Shown here piece after piece: positions 3,180-39,284 of a DNA stretch of 64,000 bases. How positions within the stretch are numbered: position 1 is the stretch's first letter; each line of letters opens with the position of its first letter. Origin of the DNA: Ostreococcus lucimarinus (taxonomy: Eukaryota); assembly GCA_000092065.1 (NCBI GenBank), contig CP000581.1. One strand, written 5' to 3'. Under the pieces are notes generated by a model, which saw nothing but the letters and a program-made list of their open reading frames with translations, searched no databases and had not been told where the DNA came from. The translations under genes and the position numbers were made by a program.

Positions 3180-6100
3180 GTGGGACGAGACAGGGCGCGA
3201 AAGACTGACGCAGATGCGGTGCCGTGCGGTGATGCCGACCTTAGGCGTGTCGATCGTGGTGGGTGGCTCGACGGCGACGCGAGACTATCGACGCGAGGCG
3301 GACGCGTCGACGCTTCGGTGGCGGAGGGCGAGACGACGTGGCGAGGGGATTCGGGAAGTGATGCGGACGATGGAACGAGCGTGCAGGATGGTAGGGAATG
3401 GTACACGTTTAAGCACGGAGAGAACGTGCGGTGGTTGGTGGAACAGAGTGGGTTAGACTGGGCCACTCTGGAGCAACTGAATCCAGACATGGATTTGACG
3501 ACGACGTTTCCGGGAGATAGAATTGTTATCCGTGGACCACCGAGTTTAAAGCCGAACGATCGTGTGGTTGCAGCAGTGGTGGCACAACCGACGTCTTCCG
3601 TCGTGGTGACGCCAAGATTATCGACGTGGAGCTCACCCGTCGCATTAGCGGGTGTGCTCATCGTGGGTATCGTCACCGGCGCAGCTTTCGCGGGGAAAAG
3701 GCGGCTATCCACGGTCATCATGGCGCTCACGGGGAACGCGGACCCACAACTCGAGGCAAAAGACAACGAAATTGACGCTCTCAGAGCCCACCTGGATGTC
3801 GCGGAACGTGATCTCACGGACATGCGAGAGAAGTGGCTGAGGAACGAACAGTCGCTGGAAAACTTGCAACAGCTCCTGGAAAGTGCGTCGCGAGCCGACG
3901 CATCTTTGAGAGACCAAATCAGCGTGCTGAAAGAGTCCCTAGACTCAAGAAATAACGATGTCAAACGTCTCGAAAGCTCGAACGCTGAAGCCAATGAGCT
4001 TGCGGAGCAGTACAAAACCAAGCTTAAGAACGCTCAAGGTGAAGTTGACGCGCTGCGGGAAACTGAGAGAAACAGTGCGTCTCAACTTGCCCAAGTCACG
4101 CAGATGACAACGCAGTACGAAGGCGATATTTTGAGTTATAAAAGTAAATTATTGGACATCGAGGCGGAGCTGATGGCTCTCAGAGAGCTCAACGACGGTT
4201 ATTCTGATGAAGCAAATACCTCAAAAGAAAAGTACAAAGAGACACTGAGCGAAATTGCCAAAGTGACAGAGTTGAATGACAAGCTCGAGGCAGAGCTTTC
4301 AAAAACGAACGAACAGGTGATAAATCATCTAAACCAGCTAGCCATTCATAAGCACGACATGGAAAAGCTGGAATTAGAACTCGCGGCTTCTCGCAACGAT
4401 CTGTCAGAGTTGACGGTTGATTTTGAAAGCGCGAATACAAAATTGAGTTCACTTACGTCTGAACTGGAAGATAGCCGATCAGAGGCACTCGCATACTCGA
4501 ATGAGCTTCAAACTGTGAAAACCGACCTCGAGATTTCGATGGACGAACTCGAAACACTCAGAAAAAGTCTTAAAGCTTCGCAAGATCACGTTTCAGAATA
4601 TGAGATCAATCTCTCGGGTTACAAAACAAAGCTCGAAATGGTTCAATCGTCGCTTGAGATATCTCGTAATGAAGCCACAAGCTATCATGATGATCTTACT
4701 TTAAATAAACGTGAACTTGAGGAGGTGCGCGATGGACTTGAGCAGATAACGAGCGAGCTACGAGCTTCAAAGACTGAAAATTCCAGCTTATCTGATGAAC
4801 TCGACTGCTTAAAAAGCGAGCTTGAAATGCTTCAATCACAACTTGCTACTGCGAATGACGAGTCCTCAACACTCTCGATCGATCTTGCAGGGATTAAAAG
4901 TAAGCTCGAAATGGCTGAAAAAGCTCTGGAAGAGTCTCGCAATCAGGCATCTGGGTATAAGGGCGAGCTGGAAGTAGCACGTAATGAGGCTGTACAATTG
5001 TCTAGCGAGCTCATGGGCTTGAAAGTTAAGGTAGACGAGTTGGAGGTAGCGCTCAATGAAACCAGCGGAGAGTCGTCGACTCTTTCCATCGACCTCGCTG
5101 GTTTCAAGAGCAAGCTAGCAATGGTCGAGGAAGCTCTCGAGCAAGCGCGCACGCAGTCCTCTGAGTATGAAGGCGAGCTCGCTCGCGCTCGCGAGGCGCT
5201 CGAGAATGAGGCAAACGAGAAGAGATCCATGGAAGAGAAGTTTTCGAAGATGTGCGAGGAGCTATCTCAGCAGGGCATGCAAGCGTCGGAGGAAGGGGGA
5301 CGCCTAGAGCGCGAGCTCGCTTACACTCGCGAGGCGCTCGAGAATGAGGCAAACGAGAAGAGATCCATGGAGGAGAAGTTTTCAAAGACGTGCGAAGAGT
5401 TATCTCAGCAGGGCATGCAGGCGTCGCAGGAAGTTGATCGCCTGCAAGGTGAGTTGCAAAAGTCTAGAACCGCACTTGATAAAGCTAACGGCGAATCTTC
5501 ACTTCTTTCCATTGACCTCGCTGGTTTCAAGAGCAAGCTAGCAATGGTCGAGGAAGCTCTCGAGCAAGCGCGCATGCAGTCCTCTGAGTATGAAGGCGAG
5601 CTCGCTCGCGCTCGCGAGGCGCTCGAGAATGAGGCAAACGAGAAGAGATCCATGGAAGAGAAGTTTTCGAAGATGTGCGAGGAGCTATCTCAGCAGGGCA
5701 TGCAAGCGTCGGAGGAAGTTGATCGCCTGCAAGGTGAGTTGCAGGCGGCGCAAGCGGCGCTCGATAGCGCGTCGGGCGAGTCGTCGACTCTTTCCATCGA
5801 CCTCACTGGTTTCAAGAGCAAGCTAGCAATGGTCGAGGAAGCTCTCGAGCAAGCGCGCACGCAGTCCTCTGAGTATGAAGGCGAGCTCGCTCGCGCTCGC
5901 GAGGCGCTCGAGAATGAGGCAAACGAGAAGAGATCCATGGAAGAGAAGTTTTCGAAGATGTGCGAGGAGCTATCTCAGCAGGGCATGCAAGCGTCGGAGG
6001 AAGGGGGACGCCTAGAGCGCGAGCTCGCTCGCGCTCGCGAGGCGCTCGAGAATGAGGCAAACGAGAAGAGATCCATGGAAGAGAAGTTTTCGAAGATGTG

Positions 6101-7805
6101 CGAGGAGCTATCTCAGCAGGGCATGCAAGCGTCGGAGGAAGTTGATCGCCTGCAAGGTGAGTTGCAGGCGGCGCAAGCGGCGCTCGATAGCGCGGTGCGG
6201 GATTCAACGGAGATTCGCATTTCTGCTGATGGCTACAAGATGAATCTTGAAGCAGCGCAATGCGAGCTTGATGCGTTACGATCGCAAAGCGGTGACACGT
6301 CATCAGACCTTACAGAATATAAGAACAAGGTTGAATCATTGCAGTCCGAGCTTTTGTCTGCCCGTGAGGACTCTATGAAAACAGCAGAGGCTTTATCGCG
6401 AGAACAAATCAAATTTCAAGGCATGGAGGAAAAGTTGGCAAATATCGTAGCATCGAGCGGGGCAGACAACGTTGAGATTGAAACTTATAAATCACGGCTT
6501 GCGAGCAGTGAATTAGAACTCGAAACTCTTAGGGTGAAAGCAGCGGTAAATGCTGAAGAAGCAGAAAAGTATCAAGTAAATCTCATCGACGCCCGTGAGG
6601 AAGTTGCAAGATTAGCCGATGAAATTGGCGAGTGGAAGAGCAAAGCAGATTCTCTCGAACACCAACTCGGTCAAGTTCAGATGGAGCACCCCGACAAAGA
6701 TGAAGATGCAGAAAAAAATCGTCAGCTTGAGGACGAGTTAGAACTCTTAAAAGAAAAAGTCTCAGCGTCATCGGCTGAAATAGAGTCATACATGGGTAAG
6801 TTGGAGCACGCGGAATCTGAACTTTCAGTGATGCGAGCTGAGATTGAAGGAGGAAAACACGAAAGATCCGAACAAAACCAGGAAGTGATCGCGCGCATGC
6901 AAATTGAAGTTAGTGCAGCAAATGAGCGAGCTGATCGCTATAAGCAGCGTTTGCTTGAGCTCGAGGAAAATATGCAGCTCAAGTTAGAATCCCTTGAGTC
7001 GATTGCTGAATTTTCTGAAACAGAGGAAGTGCGATTGCTGCAGGAACAAATTTCGAGGCTTGAGTCAGAAAACGCCGAGGCGAACTCAATGCTGAAAAAC
7101 ATGGAACAGGATATAGCGAAAATGCGTGTCTCTTCTATCGAGCCTTCTCAGTCTCCAATGTGGCTGATCGAGGAAGAGCGGCGTGACATGGAATTATCTA
7201 TGCTTGAAGCGAGACAAGCAGCACAGCTCTCATTGGCACAAGTGTCGCAGGCGGTAACCAAAATGAGACAACAAGCGCGAGGCGAGCTGGTTTCGCATGC
7301 CATCTCTTGCGAGTTCAAAGTACGCAAAGATGTTGGCGAACATCAATTCCTTTGTTTGGTAGGAAGTTGGCACGAGTGGGATGTACAGACAGCTGATTAC
7401 ATGCAGCGCGGCGCTGATGGTACCTGGCAAGTTGCCATCACGCTCTTTGCAGATGAGGCGTACGAATATAAATACTGTGTTTGCGAGGTAAATGAGCACG
7501 GTCAGCGTGTTCCAATAGAGTGGCAAGTAGGCCACAATCACGGCTTTGCCTTCGATTCAAATCTAATCGTCAATCAGAACATGAAGGCCAAGGCGCAGAT
7601 CCGAGATAAATTTCTCGCGGATCCAGCGCATACCCCAATAATCTTATTTGGGCCAAATGGTGAAAAGTTTGAGACGGGTAGTACGGCGCTGCTCCACAAC
7701 TTCTCGAATCACATCGCTGAAAGTGGATTTGAGAATTTGCGAACGAGTCTTGAGCGTTTAAATGCCATCCTCGCGAAGTCACAGCGTAAAAATCTTGAGG
7801 CGTAG
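3180..7805 (+). CDS. Giant LysM - transmembrane - coiled-coil (internally repeated) - CBM20/48-type starch-binding domain protein
   Basis: N-terminal LysM-like segment YTFKHGENVRWLVEQSGLDWATLEQLNPDM...FPGDRIVIRGPP; one TM helix WSSPVALAGVLIVGIVTGAAFAG followed by KRR; about 1150 aa of E/L/K/A-rich heptad coiled coil; C-terminal FKVRKDVGEHQFLCLVGSWHEWD...GTWQVAITL...EYKYCVCEVNEHGQRVPIEWQVGHNHGFAF matches the CBM20/CBM48 fold signature. True start uncertain (first 60 aa D/G/R-rich). Confidence 0.7.
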   Translation: MGRDRARKTDADAVPCGDADLRRVDRGGWLDGDARLSTRGGRVDASVAEGETTWRGDSGSDADDGTSVQDGREWYTFKHGENVRWLVEQSGLDWATLEQLNPDMDLTTTFPGDRIVIRGPPSLKPNDRVVAAVVAQPTSSVVVTPRLSTWSSPVALAGVLIVGIVTGAAFAGKRRLSTVIMALTGNADPQLEAKDNEIDALRAHLDVAERDLTDMREKWLRNEQSLENLQQLLESASRADASLRDQISVLKESLDSRNNDVKRLESSNAEANELAEQYKTKLKNAQGEVDALRETERNSASQLAQVTQMTTQYEGDILSYKSKLLDIEAELMALRELNDGYSDEANTSKEKYKETLSEIAKVTELNDKLEAELSKTNEQVINHLNQLAIHKHDMEKLELELAASRNDLSELTVDFESANTKLSSLTSELEDSRSEALAYSNELQTVKTDLEISMDELETLRKSLKASQDHVSEYEINLSGYKTKLEMVQSSLEISRNEATSYHDDLTLNKRELEEVRDGLEQITSELRASKTENSSLSDELDCLKSELEMLQSQLATANDESSTLSIDLAGIKSKLEMAEKALEESRNQASGYKGELEVARNEAVQLSSELMGLKVKVDELEVALNETSGESSTLSIDLAGFKSKLAMVEEALEQARTQSSEYEGELARAREALENEANEKRSMEEKFSKMCEELSQQGMQASEEGGRLERELAYTREALENEANEKRSMEEKFSKTCEELSQQGMQASQEVDRLQGELQKSRTALDKANGESSLLSIDLAGFKSKLAMVEEALEQARMQSSEYEGELARAREALENEANEKRSMEEKFSKMCEELSQQGMQASEEVDRLQGELQAAQAALDSASGESSTLSIDLTGFKSKLAMVEEALEQARTQSSEYEGELARAREALENEANEKRSMEEKFSKMCEELSQQGMQASEEGGRLERELARAREALENEANEKRSMEEKFSKMCEELSQQGMQASEEVDRLQGELQAAQAALDSAVRDSTEIRISADGYKMNLEAAQCELDALRSQSGDTSSDLTEYKNKVESLQSELLSAREDSMKTAEALSREQIKFQGMEEKLANIVASSGADNVEIETYKSRLASSELELETLRVKAAVNAEEAEKYQVNLIDAREEVARLADEIGEWKSKADSLEHQLGQVQMEHPDKDEDAEKNRQLEDELELLKEKVSASSAEIESYMGKLEHAESELSVMRAEIEGGKHERSEQNQEVIARMQIEVSAANERADRYKQRLLELEENMQLKLESLESIAEFSETEEVRLLQEQISRLESENAEANSMLKNMEQDIAKMRVSSIEPSQSPMWLIEEERRDMELSMLEARQAAQLSLAQVSQAVTKMRQQARGELVSHAISCEFKVRKDVGEHQFLCLVGSWHEWDVQTADYMQRGADGTWQVAITLFADEAYEYKYCVCEVNEHGQRVPIEWQVGHNHGFAFDSNLIVNQNMKAKAQIRDKFLADPAHTPIILFGPNGEKFETGSTALLHNFSNHIAESGFENLRTSLERLNAILAKSQRKNLEA
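5070..6190 (+). repeat. Near-identical in-frame tandem DNA repeats inside the coiled-coil gene (alternating ~138-nt and ~285-nt units)
   Basis: The block GCGAGGCGCTCGAGAATGAGGCAAACGAGAAGAGATCCATGGAAGAGAAGTTTTCGAAGATGTGCGAGGAGCTATCTCAGCAGGGCATGCAAGCGTCGGAGGAAG recurs about 5 times (near 5190, 5328, 5613, 5899, 6037). The longer unit beginning GAGTCGTCGACTCTTTCCATCGACCTCGCTGGTTTCAAGAGCAAGCTAGCAATGGTCGAGGAAGCTCTCGAGCAAGCGCGCACGCAGTCCTCTGAGTATGAAGGCGAG recurs 3 times (near 5071, 5491, 5771) with only scattered substitutions. Confidence 0.85.
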
Positions 7806-31567: not shown

Positions 31568-34500
31568 CTACTGAGCGCCGGCGACGTAGAGCGACGCGCT
31601 GAAGACAATGTCGCGTTTAATCGCCGCGCTCGCTTCTTCCATTTTCGCGAACAAGGTGCTATCGCCCATGATTCTCGCCGCGTTCCTCACGTCGCGGCAC
31701 ATTTCATCGAGTCGAACGATGGTGCGAACGACGCTTCCCTCTTGCACGTCGGTGAGCTGACAGATGTCCGCGAACGGCGTGCCGCGCGCCCACTCGTAGA
31801 CGACTTCGGATAAACCAAAGCGCATGGTCGTCTCTACGAATTCATCAGGCGCAATCGGTAGACCATGTGCCATCTGTATCTCGCCGGCGGCAAACGCTAG
31901 CTCTTTCGCGCGATCACACGCCGCTTTGAGCGAGCCTTCGAGGTTGGGCGGGGAAGCATTCTTTTCTTGAAAGACGAGCGCCGCGAGAAGCGCCACGGCT
32001 TCCTCTGAAGGTATATCCGTGAGCACGCCCGCAAATATAATTTCTGTTCCGACGAGCTCGTCCCCAGTGGCAATTTCACACGCCACGCGACCTTTCAACG
32101 TCACCGTCCTGTTTTCGTCGAGATAGCCCATGCGCTGGAGCACAGCGACGCGCGCTTCAAAATCGGGCATTTGGAGCAAGTTTGCGTCTGACAATCCGAA
32201 CTCCAGCTCGGCGACACGAGAAGTGAGAACATGTTTTGCTCGCAGCAACGCCGACCATTCACGAAGTTTCTGCGCCGATGCGACCGGTCTCGGGGGCAAG
32301 CTCTTCACCAAGTCGGCGTGATGCTGACAAGCTTCCACGGTGACGATGTCTTGTATCTTCAAATCCTTGAGCGGGTGGAGAGCTTCAAACGAGGTCTCAC
32401 TCGACAATTTCTCCATCGATAGGAGCGCTCGAGAAGTCGCCGCTACGTCACCACTACCATCTAGTATTGCGTCCGCTTCTACGCTCAACCGACTAGTCGT
32501 GATAGCGAGTATCGCGGTCTCAGGAACGCTCGCGACAATGTAATCGATGCCGCCCGCTTGTCGAAACCACGGAAGGCCGTCGGGCATTTTATTTGAGGTC
32601 GTGCCACCGCGCTTACCTCCGCCGGCGGACTTCTTGGACATGCCGAAGAAATCATCGTCGTCATCTTTGTCCTTACTATTCATGGACTTCATCGCCGTGG
32701 GTGCGTTGTCTCGGGCAGCGTCTTCAGCTTCGGCGACACCTTTGGAGGCATGGCCTTCAGGACACGAAACAAGAACCACGAAAGACTTTCCATTCGTCGC
32801 AGAAGTCACCACGCGCAGGAGCACGCAATGTTTTGCGACACCACCTCTTGGTAGTCCGTCCACACTCTCACCTCCCTCGCCTTCAGGAGCGACGAGCAAG
32901 ACCCTTCCCGGGCTGAGTGCGTTTTGCGCCCCTCGACTCGTCATGATGGCTTCTCTCACGTGCTCCACGCTTCGTGCAATCTCTCTCGCATGGTCGTCCC
33001 AATGAACGGCTTTCTGCCATTCATCCGGTGAAAACTGCGCTTCAGTTTGCATGAGCGACTCTACTTTGCGAAGAGCAGCGGTGTCGATAGCGAGATCGCC
33101 TCGTCGATCTATGACGCTGCGCTGTGCATGGAATTCGGCAAACGAGCGCGCGAGCATATCCTCGACGCGCAAGTCCTCGACTCGCATGAGGTTGAGAATC
33201 ATGCCGTACGTCAATCGGAACTGTGACTGCAATTTCGTTGCTTGACCCGACAGCAACTGACGAAGCTCAAGTTCTGGAGGAAAGTTCTCCCAAGCTGCCA
33301 AGATGACGGTGCCGACTGTGTCGAGGCCTCGACGTCCAGCGCGGCCAGCCATTTGCGTATATTCACCACTTAGAAGACCTCTGAAATCTTGCCCGTCATG
33401 TTTGCGCAGACTTTGGAAGCACACACAACGAGCTGGAGCGTTTACACCCATCGCAAAAGTTTCCGTGCAATAGAGAACTTTAAGCAAACCACGACAAAAC
33501 AACATCTCGACAATCTCCTTGACGATTGGCAGTAGACCAGCGTGATGCACGCCGAGACCTCGACGAAGGAGTTCGCGCACGCGAAGGACTTGCGGTAACT
33601 TGCGGTCGGTGACGGATAATCGACTCAGCGCGCGTTCACAAAATACGTGGATTTCGTGCTTCTCAGAGCTTGATGTGAGATCCATCGACGTCAGGCTGTC
33701 GACGAGAGTGTCGCATCGTTTCTTGCTAAACGCAAATACAACCATGGGTAGTAGTTCTCGACGTTCAAGATTGCGAATGAGCTCTACCCACATATTCTTA
33801 TCGCGCCCAGCGTTGGGTCCAAACGAGCTTCCTCGTCCACCGGTGACGTTTTGGGTTCCTCCGCGCCCGCCCACTCGGCCTCCTCGCCCTTGTTGGGCTC
33901 CACCACGGCCGCCCCGTCCGGCGAGCGCGGTTTGTTTCGCAGCTTGCGCATTTGCTGGTGTTGCCGTCGTCGTTTTGTTACCAAGTAGCTTCTTTTTGTG
34001 CGCATCTGACGCGACTTTATACCCAGTCGGCAAGAATGCTTCGTGCTCTCCGACCTTGTAAAAGTCCTTCTCCTTATCGCCTCCGAAGTAGATGCAGTGT
34101 TCGAGCGGCACAGGTCGCTTCTTCGTTCCCGTGACGAATATTTTCTTTCTCTTCGTTCTTCCAACCCAATCAGCAAACTCGAAAACGTTTGGTACCGTGG
34201 CAGACAACAAAATCAAACCAACGTGCGCGGGAAGCATGATGATGACCTCTTCCCACACGACACCTCTCTCGGCGTCATTTACGTAGTGCACCTCGTCAAA
34301 GATAACCCATTCGACGTCGCGTATCAGATCCGCGCCTCGATACAGCATACTCCGCAAAATTTCCGTCGTCATGATGAGACAAGCCGCTTCTGGTTTGATG
34401 GAAACGTCACCTGTCAACAGGCCGACGTCGAACATCTTCCCAAAATCTCTAAACTTTTGGTTGCTAATCGTCTTGATTGGAGACGTATAGATGGCGCGCG

Positions 34501-35737
34501 TGCAGTGTTTCGTAGCCAGCGCAAAGGCGTATTCCGCAACCACGGTCTTGCCCGCGGAAGTGTGCGCTGCAACGAACACATTCTCGGACTTTTCCAAGTG
34601 GACGATGGCTTCTTTCTGAAATAAATCGAGTTCGAATGGGAAATCGTGCGCCGGTTCGGGTACCTCGCGTCTATACGCTTCCTGAACGTCGTCAAATCTC
34701 TCCATGACGGCCCATGTCTCTCCTTTCTTCTTCCTCGACTTACTTCGCCTTCGAGCCGCAATAATGGATTTTGTGCCGTTCAGTAATGCCTCGACTTCGG
34801 CTTCGCCTTCGAGCGTGACTTCGTCGACCGCTTCGCCGTCCTCTTCCGTTTCGTCCTCCGTTTCGTCCTCCGTGTCATCCTCCTCGCTCGATGATTCCTC
34901 CGGTCGAACAGCGCCGCGAAGCGCATCGATGAATAAATCGTCGTACGACATCGGTAACTCTTCATCGTCCATCACTGTCAGCTTTTCAAGCTCGAGCTCC
35001 ATTTGCTCCATGCCACTGTCTAAATCAAACATTTCTCGCATCCCGTGCAGCGTGTTTGGTAGAGTCGACGCTGAGAGATACGTCCCCGCTTCAAACTCTT
35101 CCAACCACGCCTTTCCCGCGCGACTCGCCAGCTCCATACGCTTTGCCGCGCTCTCTCGCGCGGCTGCGTCCCATCCTTCTCCTCCCGGCGTGAACGGCAC
35201 TTGACTAAACGAACCTCGCACGAAATCGCTCTGCGGCGCGGGCGAACGCGCCAACGAACTCGAATCTCCAGCCCCACCTTCGGCGAGAAGTTCGACCTCG
35301 ATCCAATCCGTCGTCGCCAACGTCTCCCCTCGCGCTTGTCGCTCGGCCCAATCCTTTGACGGCGTCGGCGTCGAGTGTGCGTCGTATGCGTCCACGTCGT
35401 ACGGCGTCGGCGTCGGCGCGCGCGGAAGCACCGCCGCCTCCGCCTCGCTCGGCTCTGCGCCCGCGCAGTGCGCGCTCAGCTTCACGCGGGCCATCATCGA
35501 CGCGGACGCAATCAGGGCGTCATCCAGTTCGCTCGCGCGCCGCGCTCGCGCGTCGTGCGCAGCGCCGTCGTCGTTCGGGACGACGGTTGGGTCAAAGCGG
35601 AGCGCGCGCGCGGGGACGCGTTCGACGGCGTCGACGTCCGCGACGTCGTCCTCGTCCACGACGACGATGCGGACGTCACCGCTCGATGTGGGGACGAGGG
35701 CCACGCGATCACCGACGCCCTCGACGAGGAGTCGCAT
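31568..35737 (-). CDS. SKI2: SKI2-type DExH-box RNA helicase (cytoplasmic exosome cofactor, SKI2/SKIV2L-like)
   Basis: 1389 aa; helicase motifs AHTSAGKTVVAEYA (I), DEVHYVND (II), LSATVPN (III), FAMGVNAPARCV and QMAGRAGRRG (VI); arch/insertion and C-terminal DSHCT-like region (GSVVRTIVRLDEMCRDVRNAARIMGDSTLFAKMEEA). The long N-terminal extension is typical of Ski2 as opposed to Mtr4. Confidence 0.85.
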   Translation of the reverse strand: MRLLVEGVGDRVALVPTSSGDVRIVVVDEDDVADVDAVERVPARALRFDPTVVPNDDGAAHDARARRASELDDALIASASMMARVKLSAHCAGAEPSEAEAAVLPRAPTPTPYDVDAYDAHSTPTPSKDWAERQARGETLATTDWIEVELLAEGGAGDSSSLARSPAPQSDFVRGSFSQVPFTPGGEGWDAAARESAAKRMELASRAGKAWLEEFEAGTYLSASTLPNTLHGMREMFDLDSGMEQMELELEKLTVMDDEELPMSYDDLFIDALRGAVRPEESSSEEDDTEDETEDETEEDGEAVDEVTLEGEAEVEALLNGTKSIIAARRRSKSRKKKGETWAVMERFDDVQEAYRREVPEPAHDFPFELDLFQKEAIVHLEKSENVFVAAHTSAGKTVVAEYAFALATKHCTRAIYTSPIKTISNQKFRDFGKMFDVGLLTGDVSIKPEAACLIMTTEILRSMLYRGADLIRDVEWVIFDEVHYVNDAERGVVWEEVIIMLPAHVGLILLSATVPNVFEFADWVGRTKRKKIFVTGTKKRPVPLEHCIYFGGDKEKDFYKVGEHEAFLPTGYKVASDAHKKKLLGNKTTTATPANAQAAKQTALAGRGGRGGAQQGRGGRVGGRGGTQNVTGGRGSSFGPNAGRDKNMWVELIRNLERRELLPMVVFAFSKKRCDTLVDSLTSMDLTSSSEKHEIHVFCERALSRLSVTDRKLPQVLRVRELLRRGLGVHHAGLLPIVKEIVEMLFCRGLLKVLYCTETFAMGVNAPARCVCFQSLRKHDGQDFRGLLSGEYTQMAGRAGRRGLDTVGTVILAAWENFPPELELRQLLSGQATKLQSQFRLTYGMILNLMRVEDLRVEDMLARSFAEFHAQRSVIDRRGDLAIDTAALRKVESLMQTEAQFSPDEWQKAVHWDDHAREIARSVEHVREAIMTSRGAQNALSPGRVLLVAPEGEGGESVDGLPRGGVAKHCVLLRVVTSATNGKSFVVLVSCPEGHASKGVAEAEDAARDNAPTAMKSMNSKDKDDDDDFFGMSKKSAGGGKRGGTTSNKMPDGLPWFRQAGGIDYIVASVPETAILAITTSRLSVEADAILDGSGDVAATSRALLSMEKLSSETSFEALHPLKDLKIQDIVTVEACQHHADLVKSLPPRPVASAQKLREWSALLRAKHVLTSRVAELEFGLSDANLLQMPDFEARVAVLQRMGYLDENRTVTLKGRVACEIATGDELVGTEIIFAGVLTDIPSEEAVALLAALVFQEKNASPPNLEGSLKAACDRAKELAFAAGEIQMAHGLPIAPDEFVETTMRFGLSEVVYEWARGTPFADICQLTDVQEGSVVRTIVRLDEMCRDVRNAARIMGDSTLFAKMEEASAAIKRDIVFSASLYVAGAQ

Positions 35738-35869: not shown

Positions 35870-37357
35870 TCAAGTTTCGTAACGCTGCTCGCCGAGCAAG
35901 AAAACCTTGTCCGTTCTCGACAAGTCGTGTTCGAATCCGCCATGGCCGATGCGCTCCAGGGCGTCTGCAGGAGAAATATCGAGAAGTTCGTCGCCGAGAA
36001 GGGCGCGCCAGGTGTTGAGATCGGTGATTCCCGTTTCTGGTAAGCGATTACTCGCTTGGAAAGTCAGAAGAGCCGCGGAGGTGGTGCTACCGAAGTACCA
36101 ATACTCCATGTCCTCTTCGCCCGAATCGAAACCTTGTTCGGAGAGGATGACTTGCATCTTGTGAACTTCCATACCGCCGTCGTCTTCGCGAAGGACGGGC
36201 CACTTATGAGCACCTATTTTACCGTTCGTTTCGAATGAAGCGCCTTGAGGCGCACCTCGCTCGTCGTCGTGGCCAAAAGGATCGTAATCATCCGGGGCGT
36301 AGTCCTCTTCCGCCATGACATATTTCGGGTTCGCAGTGGCCGCTTCTGCTGCGGGCGCTTCTACCGAGGGCACCTTGTCCACGACCTCTGGAATCTTGCT
36401 CTCATCGAATGCGATCGCACCCGGTGGAGGTCCCCACTTGAATGCTTCTTCACCGAGCAATGCGCGCCACGTATCCGAATCCACGAGCCCAGTCTCGGGG
36501 ATCCCAGCGTTGGCTTGGAAATACAACAACGCGACCTTCGTCGTTTCGCCGAAGAACATATCCTCCTCGTCGTCTTCCCCGGCCCAGAATCCCGCCTCGT
36601 TTAATTTGTAGTGAATCGTCGTCATCAGATAGATGTCGTCGTCATTTTTCTTGACGAGCGGCCACTCCCCCGAACGATCCGTGCCGTCGCCTCTCCACTC
36701 GCTCACGTCGAGCACGGGCTCGACAATCGGTTCGCTCGCCTCCACATCCACCGCGCCTAACCCACCACCACCAACGCCAAGCATGGCCAACATATCCGCA
36801 TCACTCTTCTCTCCCTTCACGGCGTTCATGCTCGAGCCCGCGTCGAGCGTCCCTCCTCGCGTCGTCGCCGCTCGCACCTCCTCCTTCAGCTCCCGCACCT
36901 CCTTCGTCAACGACCGAATCTCTTTCAGCAGCTCCATCTGCACTTGCGCCGCATCCAAGACTATTTCTCCTCGCTCTTCGCGTATCTCCCGCAGTTCATT
37001 ATCGATCAGCGTGCGTTCGACGCGCAGGCGCGACGTCTCCACCAACGCCGCCTCCGCCGCGTCCCCAGCCTTCTTGAGAAATCCTCGAAGCTTCTTCTTC
37101 CCTCGCGCCACCACCGCGCCGCGCGGAGCGTCCGCGCGCGCGCGTCGCGACGGCGCGAGCGTCACCGGCGTCGCCCCGTCCGCGCGCGCGCGAAGGACGC
37201 AGCGCGCGCGCGGCGTCGCGGCGTCGCCGAATCCACGCCCGACGACGACGACGGCGGCGCGCGCGACGCCTCGAGCGCGCGCCGCGCCGCGCGACGACGA
37301 CGGCGCGCGCGCCGCCGTCGATCGCGTCGACGCGGCGATGGGCGCGCGCGCGCGCAT
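35870..37357 (-). CDS. Protein with two peptidoglycan-binding (PG_binding_1) domains and transit-peptide-like N-terminus
   Basis: Two copies of the PF01471-like pattern: ...HYKLNEAGFWAGEDDEEDMFFGETTKVALLYFQANAGIPETGLVDSDTWRALLG and ...VILSEQGFDSGEEDMEYWYFGSTTSAALLTFQASNRLPETGITDLNTWRALLG. N-terminus from internal ATG MRARAPIAASTRSTAARAPSSSRGAARARG is S/T/R/A-rich. Upstream ORF codons overlap the LRR gene on the other strand. Confidence 0.6.
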   Translation of the reverse strand: MRARAPIAASTRSTAARAPSSSRGAARARGVARAAVVVVGRGFGDAATPRARCVLRARADGATPVTLAPSRRARADAPRGAVVARGKKKLRGFLKKAGDAAEAALVETSRLRVERTLIDNELREIREERGEIVLDAAQVQMELLKEIRSLTKEVRELKEEVRAATTRGGTLDAGSSMNAVKGEKSDADMLAMLGVGGGGLGAVDVEASEPIVEPVLDVSEWRGDGTDRSGEWPLVKKNDDDIYLMTTIHYKLNEAGFWAGEDDEEDMFFGETTKVALLYFQANAGIPETGLVDSDTWRALLGEEAFKWGPPPGAIAFDESKIPEVVDKVPSVEAPAAEAATANPKYVMAEEDYAPDDYDPFGHDDERGAPQGASFETNGKIGAHKWPVLREDDGGMEVHKMQVILSEQGFDSGEEDMEYWYFGSTTSAALLTFQASNRLPETGITDLNTWRALLGDELLDISPADALERIGHGGFEHDLSRTDKVFLLGEQRYET

Positions 37358-37475
37358 GTCGGAAGACGACGCGACGCGACGAGAGCGCGCGTGACAATGC
37401 CGACACCGACGCGCTGCGCGCGAGACGTCGACGCGCGACGCGCGGACGACGCGTCGAGGCGTCGAGTCGACGGCG

Positions 37476-38078
37476 ATGACGCGGTCGAGCGCGATGCGCG
37501 CGCTCGCGCGCGCGCGCGCGCGCGTCGTCGCCGCGCGCGCGCGCGGTGGGAACGTTTCGTCGTCGTCAAAGTTCGCGTCGATGACGACGACGACGACGAC
37601 GCGCCCGAGCGACGACGTCACCGCGCGCACGCTGCTCGAGGCGAACGGCAAGCGATTCGACGTCGCGATGCCGCGCGGCGTGGCGCTGCAGGCGCTGTTG
37701 CTCGCGCGAAGCGACGACTTGAAGTGCGTGGACATCATGTGTCAGTGGGTGGGGGACGCGTGCGCGTGCAGGCTCGCGCGCGCGCTCGACAGGCGAGGGG
37801 AGGCGCTCAGGGTGCTGGATGTTTCTGGGAACAGGCTGCGCGCGCTGCCGAGCGCGGTGTGGGCGATGCGGGCGCTGGAGGTGTTGGACGCGAGCGACAA
37901 CGCGTTGACGCCGGCGGACGTCCCGTTCGACGATTTGATGGACGAGACCAAGGATGTGGCGCCGAATCTCAAGGTTTTGAATTTAAGGGGGAACGTGGCG
38001 GTGATAGATGGGTTAGAGGGGCGATTGAGAGAGGTCGTGGACGCCATGGCGCGTCGCGGCGTGAAGCTCGTGTTGTAG
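37476..38078 (+). CDS. Leucine-rich-repeat protein, small
   Basis: LRVLDVSGNRLRALPSAVWAMRALEVLDASDNALT...LKVLNLRGNVAV: consecutive LxxLxLxxNxL repeats. Confidence 0.5.
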   Translation: MTRSSAMRALARARARVVAARARGGNVSSSSKFASMTTTTTTRPSDDVTARTLLEANGKRFDVAMPRGVALQALLLARSDDLKCVDIMCQWVGDACACRLARALDRRGEALRVLDVSGNRLRALPSAVWAMRALEVLDASDNALTPADVPFDDLMDETKDVAPNLKVLNLRGNVAVIDGLEGRLREVVDAMARRGVKLVL

Positions 38079-38216
38079 TAAAGCGGTTAGCGTTTGATTA
38101 AACGTCATTCGTCGTCGCGCATGTCAGCGTCATCGCGTTGCGGTGCGCGAGCCGCCTCGACATCGTCGCCGTCGCGTCATCTCTCGCGTCGCCGCCCTTC
38201 GCGCGCGCGCGCGTCG

Positions 38217-39284
38217 ATGGCGTCGGTTGCCAGCCAGCTCCCGGTGCTGTCGCTGCCGCGAGAAGACGCCGACGAAAACTCACACCGCGCGTTCGCCGCG
38301 GAGCTGTGTCGAACGTGTCACGACGTTGGATTCTTTTATTTATCGAATCACGGCGTCGAGCAGGCGTGCGACAACGTTCTCGACGCGTCGAGGGCGTTCT
38401 TCGCGTTGCCACTGGCTGAGAAGAAAGAGATAGACTACACGCGAAGTCGAGCGTTTCGAGGATACATGTACGACGGCGCCGAAAACACCGCTGGAAAGCC
38501 AGATCGAAGAGAGCAGATTGAATTCGGTGTCGAGTGCGCCGAAACGTGCGCCACCGAAGGGCCATATTACGAGCGATTAAAAGGTCCAAATCAGTGGCCG
38601 GCTCAGGTGCCGCTTCGCGCACCAGTGGAAGATTTCCAAAACAAAATGGCGACGTTGAGTCGAAGAATCATGACTTATTTGGCGATCGGACTAGACCTCG
38701 ACGGCGGTTATTTCGATTCCATGTTCGGCGACGAACCGAACGTGCAGATGAAAATTTGCCGGTATCCGCCGAGCGACGGATCCGTCGGCGAACACAGCGA
38801 CACTGGAATTCTTTCTTTTGTCGTCCAAGACTCGGTCGGTGGTTTGCAAGTGCAGCTTCACGATAGCGGTGAATGGATTGATGCGCCGCCGATCGACGGA
38901 ACGCTCGTCGTCAACTTGGGGGAGATGATTCAACTAATCACCGGCGGCTACTTTCTTGCCACGCCGCATCGCGTTCAAAACCTGAACGGCAGCCAGGCGC
39001 GATACTCGGTGCCTTACTTTTGGAATCCGGAGCTAGACTATCGAGTCGAATTTATAGAGTCCTCCATATTGGACAGTTTGGTTTGGCATCGGCCGCGACC
39101 GTCGGACGATTCCTTCAGAGCGACGGGATCGCACGGCGGCGCGAATCGACTCATCTCAGCGTACGGCGAAAACGCGTTCAAATCGTTCGCACGGTCTCAT
39201 CCCGTAGTCATGCGAAGGCATCATTCAGACTTAGTGATGAACCCCGACGGTAGTATAACTAGTCCTAGCAGCTCAATATTATAA
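38217..39284 (+). CDS. 2-oxoglutarate/Fe(II)-dependent oxygenase (DIOX_N + 2OG-FeII_Oxy)
   Basis: N-terminal LPVLSLPREDADENSHRAFAAELCRTCHDVGFFYLSNHGV (non-haem dioxygenase N-terminal pattern); HxD...H core (EHSDTGILSFV...ATPHRV). Start at MASVASQ; alternative ORF-track start at 38094, only 16 nt after the LRR stop. Confidence 0.6.
   Translation: MASVASQLPVLSLPREDADENSHRAFAAELCRTCHDVGFFYLSNHGVEQACDNVLDASRAFFALPLAEKKEIDYTRSRAFRGYMYDGAENTAGKPDRREQIEFGVECAETCATEGPYYERLKGPNQWPAQVPLRAPVEDFQNKMATLSRRIMTYLAIGLDLDGGYFDSMFGDEPNVQMKICRYPPSDGSVGEHSDTGILSFVVQDSVGGLQVQLHDSGEWIDAPPIDGTLVVNLGEMIQLITGGYFLATPHRVQNLNGSQARYSVPYFWNPELDYRVEFIESSILDSLVWHRPRPSDDSFRATGSHGGANRLISAYGENAFKSFARSHPVVMRRHHSDLVMNPDGSITSPSSSIL

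What the first reader, a model, noticed from the sequence alone, without database searches (positions are those of the whole stretch)
35870..37357. Transit-peptide-bearing protein with two bacterial-type peptidoglycan-binding domains
Two clear PG_binding_1-like modules (xxFGxxTxxALxxFQxxxGLxxTGxxDxxTWxAL) follow an S/T/R/A-rich presequence. Some prasinophyte green algae are reported to retain a largely complete peptidoglycan (Mur/PBP) pathway, presumably building a plastid-envelope PG layer. A plastid-targeted PG-binding protein would be a candidate reader or anchor of that layer, for example in plastid division or envelope organisation. This is a specific, testable link to an otherwise cryptic structure.
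Basis: partly seen in the sequence, partly recalled or inferred. Interest (0 to 1): 0.6.

Follow-up and report, generated by a model that had tools for sequence, protein, structure and literature searches.

The report
Green-algal pTAC5-like plastid protein
This Ostreococcus gene does encode a probably plastid-targeted protein with two bacterial-type peptidoglycan-binding domains, but the alga cannot make peptidoglycan. The protein is instead the green-algal relative of the land-plant chloroplast nucleoid protein pTAC5, so it is unlikely to read a plastid wall.

Summary
The ORF at 35870-37357 (-) encodes 495 aa with a basic Ala/Arg/Ser/Thr-rich presequence, a coiled coil and two PG_binding_1 domains (Pfam E=1.5e-21). 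The fold is confirmed by an AlphaFold model and Foldseek.

The peptidoglycan-layer interpretation is not supported:
- The window is Ostreococcus lucimarinus CCE9901. Residues 141-495 equal XP_001415859.1 exactly.
- Published surveys say Ostreococcus keeps only DDL and MURE, with no GT51.
- The same architecture occurs in Chlorella, Auxenochlorella and Neomeris.

The family is specifically related to angiosperm pTAC5 (AT4G13670), a chloroplast nucleoid protein (hhalign 99%, E=3e-18). The two share a colinear order of coiled coil, PG-binding domain and C-terminal motif. They also share two derived features that 20 bacterial PG-binding repeat proteins lack: an acidic GEEDMEY/F loop in place of DGxFG, and the motif VFLLGExR(W/Y)E.

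The algal proteins differ from pTAC5. They have two PG-binding domains, no cysteines in the mature part, and no CxxCxGxG zinc finger (0 of 255 algal sequences versus 118 of 118 pTAC5).

Most likely it is a soluble, acidic, oligomeric adaptor in the plastid stroma, perhaps at the nucleoid. It is a new variant of a known kind, of modest interest.

The parts
35870..37357 (-). Complete coding sequence, 495 aa plus stop, no intron needed.
   Evidence: Translation. It is identical to database protein P0066, seen on 164 contigs. Residues 141-495 are identical to XP_001415859.1 of O. lucimarinus CCE9901.
37103..37357 (-). N-terminal presequence (residues 1-85), probably an organellar (plastid) targeting peptide.
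   Evidence: pI 12.0, first acidic residue at 45, rich in A/R/S/T. The sequence is not conserved among homologues but the composition is. No signal-peptide core or transmembrane segment.
36860..37063 (-). Long alpha-helix, a predicted coiled coil (residues 99-166).
   Evidence: AF2 helices 99-128 and 136-166 with pLDDT 74-85. 68% hydrophobic residues at heptad a/d positions. L150 and E153 are invariant in the family. The segment aligns to the pTAC5 coiled-coil segment ESLLQEISDLQLRIQ in low-stringency hhalign.
36671..36697 (-). WRGDGTDRS motif (residues 221-229), conserved in the Mamiellophyceae-like homologues just upstream of PGB1.
   Evidence: Alignment A1. Absent from the other chlorophyte-like members in that alignment.
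36452..36664 (-). PG_binding_1 domain 1 (residues 232-302).
   Evidence: One of two Pfam PF01471 stretches. AF2 pLDDT 74-91. hhalign to the pTAC5 PG-binding domain gives E=4.3e-8.
36203..36451 (-). Acidic, low-confidence linker (residues 303-385).
   Evidence: pI 4.26. pLDDT below 50 over most of the segment.
35993..36202 (-). PG_binding_1 domain 2 (residues 386-455), carrying the family-specific acidic loop SGEEDMEYWYFG.
   Evidence: Best Pfam stretch is 397-453. pLDDT 82-93. BLASTP against pTAC5 residues 177-307 gives E=3e-10. hhalign gives probability 99%.
35876..35908 (-). C-terminal conserved motif KVFLLGEQRYE (residues 484-494), probably a docking peptide.
   Evidence: L487, G489, E490 and R492 are invariant. 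The motif is present in 136/138 Mamiellophyceae-like sequences and 118/120 pTAC5, and in 0/20 bacterial PG-binding repeat proteins. The 85 chlorophyte representatives were selected by this motif, so they are not an independent test. It is modelled as disordered in the monomer.

Best explanation
This is a nuclear gene of Ostreococcus lucimarinus for a soluble, very acidic protein that is probably imported into the plastid through an 85-residue basic presequence. The mature protein has a coiled coil, two PG_binding_1-type three-helix bundles joined by a disordered acidic linker, and a short conserved C-terminal peptide (VFLLGEQRYE).

It belongs to a family found in Chlorophyta from at least three classes. 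The family is specifically related to, and is probably the algal counterpart of, land-plant pTAC5. It lacks the C-terminal DnaJ-type zinc finger that gives pTAC5 its disulfide-isomerase activity.

Inferred mechanism:
- The coiled coil oligomerises the protein.
- The PG-binding-like domains and the C-terminal peptide act as binding modules for protein partners, or for a non-sacculus ligand, in the stroma. By analogy with pTAC5 this may be at the nucleoid or transcription apparatus.
- The protein does not read or anchor a peptidoglycan wall, because the organism lacks the genes to make one.

Status of each step:
- Shown here: domain content, fold, family distribution, and the specific similarity to pTAC5.
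- Taken from literature: the absence of the PG pathway in Ostreococcus.
- Inferred: plastid import, oligomerisation, adaptor role and nucleoid location.
For: Domains and fold.

Organism.

Loss of the PG pathway in Ostreococcus: PMC4815162 and PMC3541169.

Family breadth:
- 128 representatives at E<=1e-30 in a scan of 1.84 billion proteins.
- Named members from Auxenochlorella, Neomeris and Chlorella vulgaris.

Specific relation to pTAC5:
- BLASTP E=3e-10, spanning PGB2 and the C-terminal motif.
- hhalign probability 99%, E=3e-18.
- Colinear coiled coil, PG-binding domain and motif.
- Shared acidic loop and C-terminal motif, absent from 20 bacterial PG-binding repeat proteins, 18 of which keep the canonical DGxFG.

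pTAC5 is a chloroplast nucleoid/TAC protein: PMC4080259 and PMC11811488.

Soluble and acidic, so direct DNA binding is unlikely.
Against: - No targeting predictor or localisation data were available. A mitochondrial presequence would look similar.
- Orthology with pTAC5 is not proven. I could not sample streptophyte algae or bryophytes, so the algal family could be a paralogue that streptophytes lost.
- The only pTAC5 domain with a demonstrated activity, the zinc finger, is missing here (0/255 algal sequences). Function cannot simply be transferred.
- The role of the PG-binding domain in pTAC5 itself is unknown.
- Tran et al. 2023 (PMC9954125) report PG-like material around angiosperm chloroplasts despite incomplete pathways. 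Gene-content arguments against a PG-like ligand are therefore not absolute.
Confidence: 0.55

Rival explanations
1. One reading: the protein sits in the plastid envelope and binds a peptidoglycan or peptidoglycan-like layer, helping plastid division or envelope organisation.
For: - Two bona fide PG_binding_1 domains whose closest solved relatives are phage and bacterial wall-binding modules.
- Some relatives, probably Micromonas, live in genera that keep the full pathway (PMC4815162).
- PG-like labelling has been reported even in angiosperms (PMC9954125).
Against: - O. lucimarinus keeps only DDL and MURE and has no GT51.
- The family is present in Chlorella, Auxenochlorella and Neomeris.
- The land-plant relative pTAC5 is a nucleoid protein, not an envelope protein.
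- No transmembrane anchor.
- The canonical DGxFG loop is replaced by an acidic insertion throughout the green family.
Confidence: 0.07
2. The PG-binding domains recognise a soluble product or partner of the two PG genes that Ostreococcus retains. This could be a MurE- or DDL-derived peptide such as D-Ala-D-Ala, or the MurE protein itself. The protein would then form a repurposed 'wall-less' PG module in the stroma or nucleoid.
For: - MURE and DDL are the only PG genes kept in Ostreococcus and Bathycoccus, and they are present across Viridiplantae.
- In Arabidopsis, both MurE and pTAC5 are recovered with the transcriptionally active chromosome / PEP fraction.
- The PG-binding-domain family is likewise retained across green lineages regardless of the rest of the pathway.
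Against: - This is purely correlative. No interaction data exist.
- The ligand specificity of PG_binding_1 domains is poorly defined.
- The distribution in red algae and glaucophytes was not tested.
Confidence: 0.15
3. The protein is not plastidial. The basic N-terminus would be a mitochondrial presequence or untranslated sequence, as in the shorter RefSeq model, and the protein would act elsewhere, for example in sensing bacterial wall fragments.
For: - RefSeq annotates a 355-aa model starting at M141 without any presequence.
- Arg/Ala-rich N-termini cannot be assigned to plastid or mitochondrion by eye.
Against: - Residues 86-140 are conserved as protein in other Ostreococcus-like homologues, so translation must start upstream of M141.
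- Homologues from other Mamiellophyceae-like sequences all carry basic, acid-poor N-termini of about 60-100 residues.
- There is no signal peptide for secretion.
- The closest characterised relative is plastidial.
Confidence: 0.1

Closest known systems
pTAC5 (AT4G13670; 'protein disulfide isomerase pTAC5, chloroplastic') of land plants
   Same: - N-terminal organellar presequence and an acidic mature protein (pI 4.4 here, 4.8 for pTAC5).
- A coiled coil followed by a PG_binding_1 domain with the derived acidic loop (S)GEEDME(Y/F).
- The motif VFLLGE(Q/N)R(Y/W)E about 30-50 residues downstream.
- Colinear alignment with hhalign probability 99%.
   Different: - The algal protein has two PG-binding domains instead of one.
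- It has no cysteine in the mature part and ends 1-5 residues after the motif.
- pTAC5 continues for about 80 residues into a CxxCxGxG zinc finger, the part with reported Zn-dependent disulfide-isomerase activity.
- The (REEQRW)n repeat of pTAC5 is absent in the Ostreococcus protein. Related ER..W repeats are visible in several core-chlorophyte members.
Bacterial and phage PG_binding_1 wall-binding modules (phiKZ gp144, SleB N-terminal domain, C. difficile 5tv7, multi-repeat PG-binding proteins)
   Same: - The same three-helix-bundle fold, with rmsd 0.9-2.5 A.
- The same Pfam family.
- The same FQ...L..(D/T)G......TW core.
   Different: - The bacterial domains keep DGxFG (18/20), whereas the green family has an acidic 3-residue-longer loop.
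- The bacterial domains are attached to hydrolase or transpeptidase domains, or occur in long repeat arrays.
- The organism here has no peptidoglycan to bind.
PPASP (the LysM protein associated with the PG pathway in streptophytes, van Baren 2016) and LMR1 of Chlamydomonas
   Same: They are eukaryotic plastid-associated proteins with bacterial wall-binding domains, discussed in the context of plastid PG.
   Different: - They carry LysM domains, not PG_binding_1.
- PPASP has a transmembrane anchor and co-occurs strictly with the near-complete pathway. The present family does not.

Membership tests
Pfam PF01471 PG_binding_1 | HMM score above the gathering threshold | tested here: met
   76.8 bits against a cutoff of 23, in two stretches.
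Pfam PF01471 PG_binding_1 | Three-helix-bundle fold superposable on solved PG-binding domains | tested here: met
   AF2 pLDDT 75-93 in both domains. Foldseek hits to 3bkh, 5tv7 and 6tci with rmsd 0.9-2.5 A.
Pfam PF01471 PG_binding_1 | Binding of peptidoglycan | not testable with these tools
   This needs a sacculus or muropeptide binding assay. The canonical DGxFG loop is replaced by an acidic loop, and the host lacks PG synthesis genes.
pTAC5 (land-plant plastid nucleoid protein) | PG_binding_1 domain with the GEEDME(F/Y) loop | tested here: met
   (117/120 pTAC5, 138/138 Mamiellophyceae-like).
pTAC5 (land-plant plastid nucleoid protein) | Conserved VFLLGENRWE motif downstream of the PG-binding domain | tested here: met
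   KVFLLGEQRYE at residues 484-494, aligned by BLASTP and hhalign. 0/20 bacterial PG-binding proteins have it.
pTAC5 (land-plant plastid nucleoid protein) | N-terminal coiled coil with (REEQRW)n repeats | tested here: inconclusive
   A coiled coil is present and aligns at its C-terminal end, but the RW repeats are absent in the window protein. ER..W repeats do occur in core-chlorophyte members.
pTAC5 (land-plant plastid nucleoid protein) | C-terminal C4 (CxxCxGxG) zinc finger conferring disulfide-isomerase activity | tested here: not met
   There are no cysteines in residues 86-495. 0/255 algal sequences have CxxCxGxG after the motif, against 118/118 pTAC5.
pTAC5 (land-plant plastid nucleoid protein) | Chloroplast transit peptide, nucleoid/TAC association, HSP21 interaction | not testable with these tools
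   Only presequence composition could be assessed. Localisation and interaction need experiments.
Proteins functionally tied to a plastid peptidoglycan layer | Occurrence restricted to lineages that retain the PG synthesis pathway | tested here: not met
   The family is present in O. lucimarinus, which has DDL and MURE only. It is also present in Chlorella, Auxenochlorella and Neomeris, and its relative pTAC5 is present in Arabidopsis.

The most novel reading that the evidence does not exclude
The pTAC5-type PG-binding domain, MurE and DDL may form a co-retained, wall-less remnant of the cyanobacterial peptidoglycan system that was repurposed inside the plastid. The PG-binding domains would bind MurE, or a MurE/DDL-made D-amino-acid peptide, and couple it to nucleoid or transcription function. 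That would explain why exactly these pieces survive in Ostreococcus, which has lost every other PG gene.
Probability: 0.12. Interest if true: 0.65.

Novelty: new variant of a known kind. Interest (0 to 1): 0.3.

Why it matters
The finding removes an attractive but wrong lead: a PG-binding domain in a green alga is not evidence for a plastid wall.

It also shows that the non-catalytic three quarters of pTAC5 (coiled coil, PG-binding domain and the GExRWE peptide) is an old module found in both chlorophytes and angiosperms. The zinc finger studied in Arabidopsis is absent from every chlorophyte member examined. Whether it was gained in the land-plant lineage or lost in chlorophytes was not tested.

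This redirects the question of what pTAC5 does towards its unstudied PG-binding part. Ostreococcus tauri is transformable and has one plastid per cell, so it offers a minimal system in which to ask that question.

The result also corrects the public gene model, which starts at M141 and lacks the presequence, and a widespread mis-annotation of the family as 'antiviral helicase SKI2'.

Tried and rejected
- **Word-indexed homologue searches.** Searches with the protein and with the family profile returned mostly unnamed marine-metagenome relatives. They could not reach land plants, so I used the exhaustive HMM scan.
- **pTAC5 sequence.** I recalled it from memory and treated the recollection only as a query. 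One search verified it: the real database entry is 90% identical. Real entries (P0344 and others) were used for all comparisons.
- **Zhong et al. 2013.** The primary pTAC5 paper (PMC3784589) is not held, so pTAC5 properties come from reviews and proteomics papers.
- **Localisation of a Chlamydomonas orthologue.** I looked in the Chloroplast Protein Atlas text and supplements and found none. Searches for pTAC5 or AT4G13670 together with algae found nothing relevant.
- **Synteny with the adjacent SKI2 helicase.** I tested this as a possible functional link. It is not conserved in Micromonas-like contigs or in a chlorophyte contig, so I rejected it.
- **The longer 622-aa ORF from the ATG at 37738.** Rejected because it overlaps the divergent LRR gene and its extra 127 residues are not presequence-like.
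- **Whole-protein AF2 model.** It has low global confidence (pLDDT 59.8, pTM 0.27), so I drew no conclusion about inter-domain packing.
- **Cluster-name look-ups.** They were exhausted without identifying streptophyte-alga, bryophyte, red-alga or glaucophyte members. Orthology and the full phyletic pattern remain open.

Full report
**1. The observation**

The region 35870-37738 (-) is one open reading frame. Pfam finds PF01471 (PG_binding_1) at E=1.5e-21 (76.8 bits, cutoff 23) in two stretches.

An AlphaFold2 model built on a 13-sequence family alignment is poor overall (pLDDT 59.8, pTM 0.27). It is confident for three elements: a long helix (99-166) and the two PG-binding domains. Foldseek against the PDB superposes these domains on phiKZ gp144 (rmsd 1.4 A over 67 columns), a C. 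difficile PG-binding protein (0.9 A over 66) and the SleB N-terminal domain. A profile search of PDB sequences gives the same relatives.

The first 85 residues have pI 12.0 and no acidic residue before position 45. The remaining 410 residues have pI 4.4 and no cysteine. There is no signal-peptide-like hydrophobic core and no transmembrane segment.

**2. Gene model and organism**

An identical 495-aa protein (P0066) is recorded on 164 contigs. The 355-aa RefSeq protein XP_001415859.1 (UniProt A4RR90, Ostreococcus lucimarinus CCE9901) is an exact substring, matching residues 141-495. The window is therefore O. lucimarinus or a near-identical strain.

The RefSeq model starts too late. Residues 86-140 (KKKLRGFLKKAGDAAEAAL...) are conserved as protein in other Ostreococcus-like homologues at 60-70% identity.

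The alternative start at 37738 is unlikely. It would overlap the divergently transcribed LRR gene at 37476-38078, which has Pfam LRR matches.

An MMETSP transcript of a 60%-identical homologue shows that the gene is expressed in a related alga.

**3. Does the organism have peptidoglycan?**

- van Baren et al. 2016 (PMC4815162) report complete pathways in Micromonas pusilla and some other prasinophytes. [quoted passage not shown]
- Cayrou et al. 2012 (PMC3541169) independently list O. lucimarinus CCE9901 with one GT28, no GT51 and no lytic glycosidase.

Without MurA-D, MurF, MraY, MurG and a PBP, the alga cannot make lipid II or polymerise glycan strands. That is the situation for the very genome the window comes from.

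One caveat applies. Tran et al. 2023 (PMC9954125) report PG-like labelling in angiosperms with incomplete pathways, so gene content is strong evidence but not absolute.

**4. The family**

Word-indexed searches found about 65 clusters of close relatives, mostly from marine metagenomes. All share the same architecture.

An exhaustive HMM scan of 1.84 billion representative proteins found 128 representatives at E<=1e-30. About 85-90 of these match through to the C-terminal motif. Those that carry names are from Auxenochlorella protothecoides and Chlorella vulgaris (Trebouxiophyceae) and Neomeris dumetosa (Ulvophyceae).

Weaker hits are bacterial proteins with 5-12 tandem PG-binding repeats.

**5. 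Relation to pTAC5**

IMG labels some members 'protein disulfide-isomerase'. This suggested a link to pTAC5 (AT4G13670), a component of the plastid transcriptionally active chromosome. pTAC5 is annotated with a PG-binding domain and a C4 zinc finger that has Zn-dependent disulfide-isomerase activity (PMC4080259; PMC11811488; PMC8471720).

I queried with a recalled pTAC5 sequence. The search returned the genuine Arabidopsis entry at 90% identity, together with more than 100 angiosperm orthologues. All later comparisons used those real entries.

Evidence for a specific relationship:
- BLASTP of the window protein against Arabidopsis pTAC5 aligns residues 388-494 to pTAC5 residues 177-307 (E=3e-10). 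The alignment includes SGEEDMEY/F and VFLLGE(Q/N)R(Y/W)E.
- Profile-profile comparison gives probability 99%, E=3e-18.
- At low stringency the alignment extends colinearly back into the coiled coil.
- Two derived characters are shared. The C-terminal motif occurs in 136/138 Mamiellophyceae-like sequences and 118/120 pTAC5, but in 0/20 bacterial PG-binding repeat proteins. The 85 chlorophyte representatives were selected by this motif, so their 85/85 is not an independent test.
- The acidic loop that replaces the canonical DGxFG occurs in 138/138, 70/85 and 117/120 green sequences, but in 0/20 bacterial ones. Of the bacterial proteins, 18/20 keep DGxFG.

Differences from pTAC5:
- pTAC5 has one PG-binding domain, and it corresponds best to PGB2.
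- pTAC5 continues about 80 residues beyond the motif into a CxxCxGxG zinc finger.
- None of 255 algal sequences has that tail (median tail 5 residues), whereas 118/118 pTAC5 do.

Because this defining feature is not met, I call the protein pTAC5-like rather than a pTAC5.

**6. Mechanism**

Shown: a basic presequence, an acidic soluble body, a coiled coil, two PG-binding folds, and a conserved terminal peptide that is disordered in the monomer model.

Inferred:
- The protein is imported into the plastid.
- It oligomerises through the coiled coil.
- Its PG-binding domains and terminal peptide are used as binding modules in the stroma, plausibly at the nucleoid as for pTAC5.
- At pI 4.4 it is unlikely to bind DNA itself.

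A role as reader of a PG sacculus is unlikely (about 7%). A more interesting minority reading (12-15%) is that the PG-binding domains recognise MurE, or a MurE/DDL product. These are the only PG genes Ostreococcus keeps. In Arabidopsis, MurE and pTAC5 are recovered together with the nucleoid/PEP proteins in thylakoid sub-fractions.

**7. Context**

The gene lies 132 bp upstream of a SKI2-type helicase on the same strand (31568-35737). This explains the spurious 'antiviral helicase SKI2' names attached to this family in IMG. The adjacency is not conserved in Micromonas-like contigs, so it carries no functional meaning.

**8. Verdict**

The gene is already in public databases as a 'Peptidoglycan binding-like domain-containing protein'. 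What this work adds is:
- the corrected N-terminus;
- the specific link to pTAC5;
- the recognition of a zinc-finger-less, two-PG-binding-domain architecture found across chlorophyte classes.

I rate it a new variant of a known kind, with interest of about 0.3.

Noticed in passing
window 36936-37357 (-): The public RefSeq model XP_001415859.1 starts at internal Met141 (MELLKEIR...). It therefore omits the presequence and the first half of the coiled coil. Residues 86-140 are conserved as protein in other Ostreococcus-like homologues, so the 495-aa model is better.
   Followed up: yes
window 31568-35737 (-): A SKI2-type RNA helicase (DEAD, Ski2_N, MTR4 beta-barrel and DSHCT domains) lies 132 bp downstream on the same strand. 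Many database copies of the PG-binding-domain protein are mislabelled 'antiviral helicase SKI2', probably through a fused reference gene model. The adjacency is not conserved in Micromonas-like contigs.
   Followed up: yes
window 37476-38078 (+): A small leucine-rich-repeat protein (200 aa) is transcribed divergently. Only 118 bp separate its start from the start of the PG-binding-domain gene, so the two probably share a bidirectional promoter.
   Followed up: partly
window 38094-39284 (+): A 2OG-Fe(II) oxygenase (DIOX_N plus 2OG-FeII_Oxy domains) with a basic Ser/Arg-rich N-terminus that also looks like an organellar presequence.
   Followed up: no
window 3180-7805 (+): A 1541-aa ORF with only weak coiled-coil-type Pfam matches (Filament, WEMBL). 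It coincides with the lowest-GC stretch of the window (0.475-0.50), which also shows strong positive GC and AT skew.
   Followed up: partly
P0465 (Chlorella vulgaris KAL4853320.1), not in the window: One Chlorella vulgaris gene model, named 'Holliday junction resolvase MOC1' by NCBI, falls in the same 90%-identity cluster as a member of this family. MOC1 is, from my own knowledge, a chloroplast nucleoid protein. The likeliest explanation is that two adjacent genes were merged into one model, but this was not checked.
   Followed up: no
residues 478-495 of the protein; window 35873-35926: The most conserved short element of the family (VFLLGEQRYE) is predicted to be disordered in the monomer model. 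It is C-terminal in algae but internal in pTAC5. This suggests a linear docking motif whose partner is unknown.
   Followed up: partly
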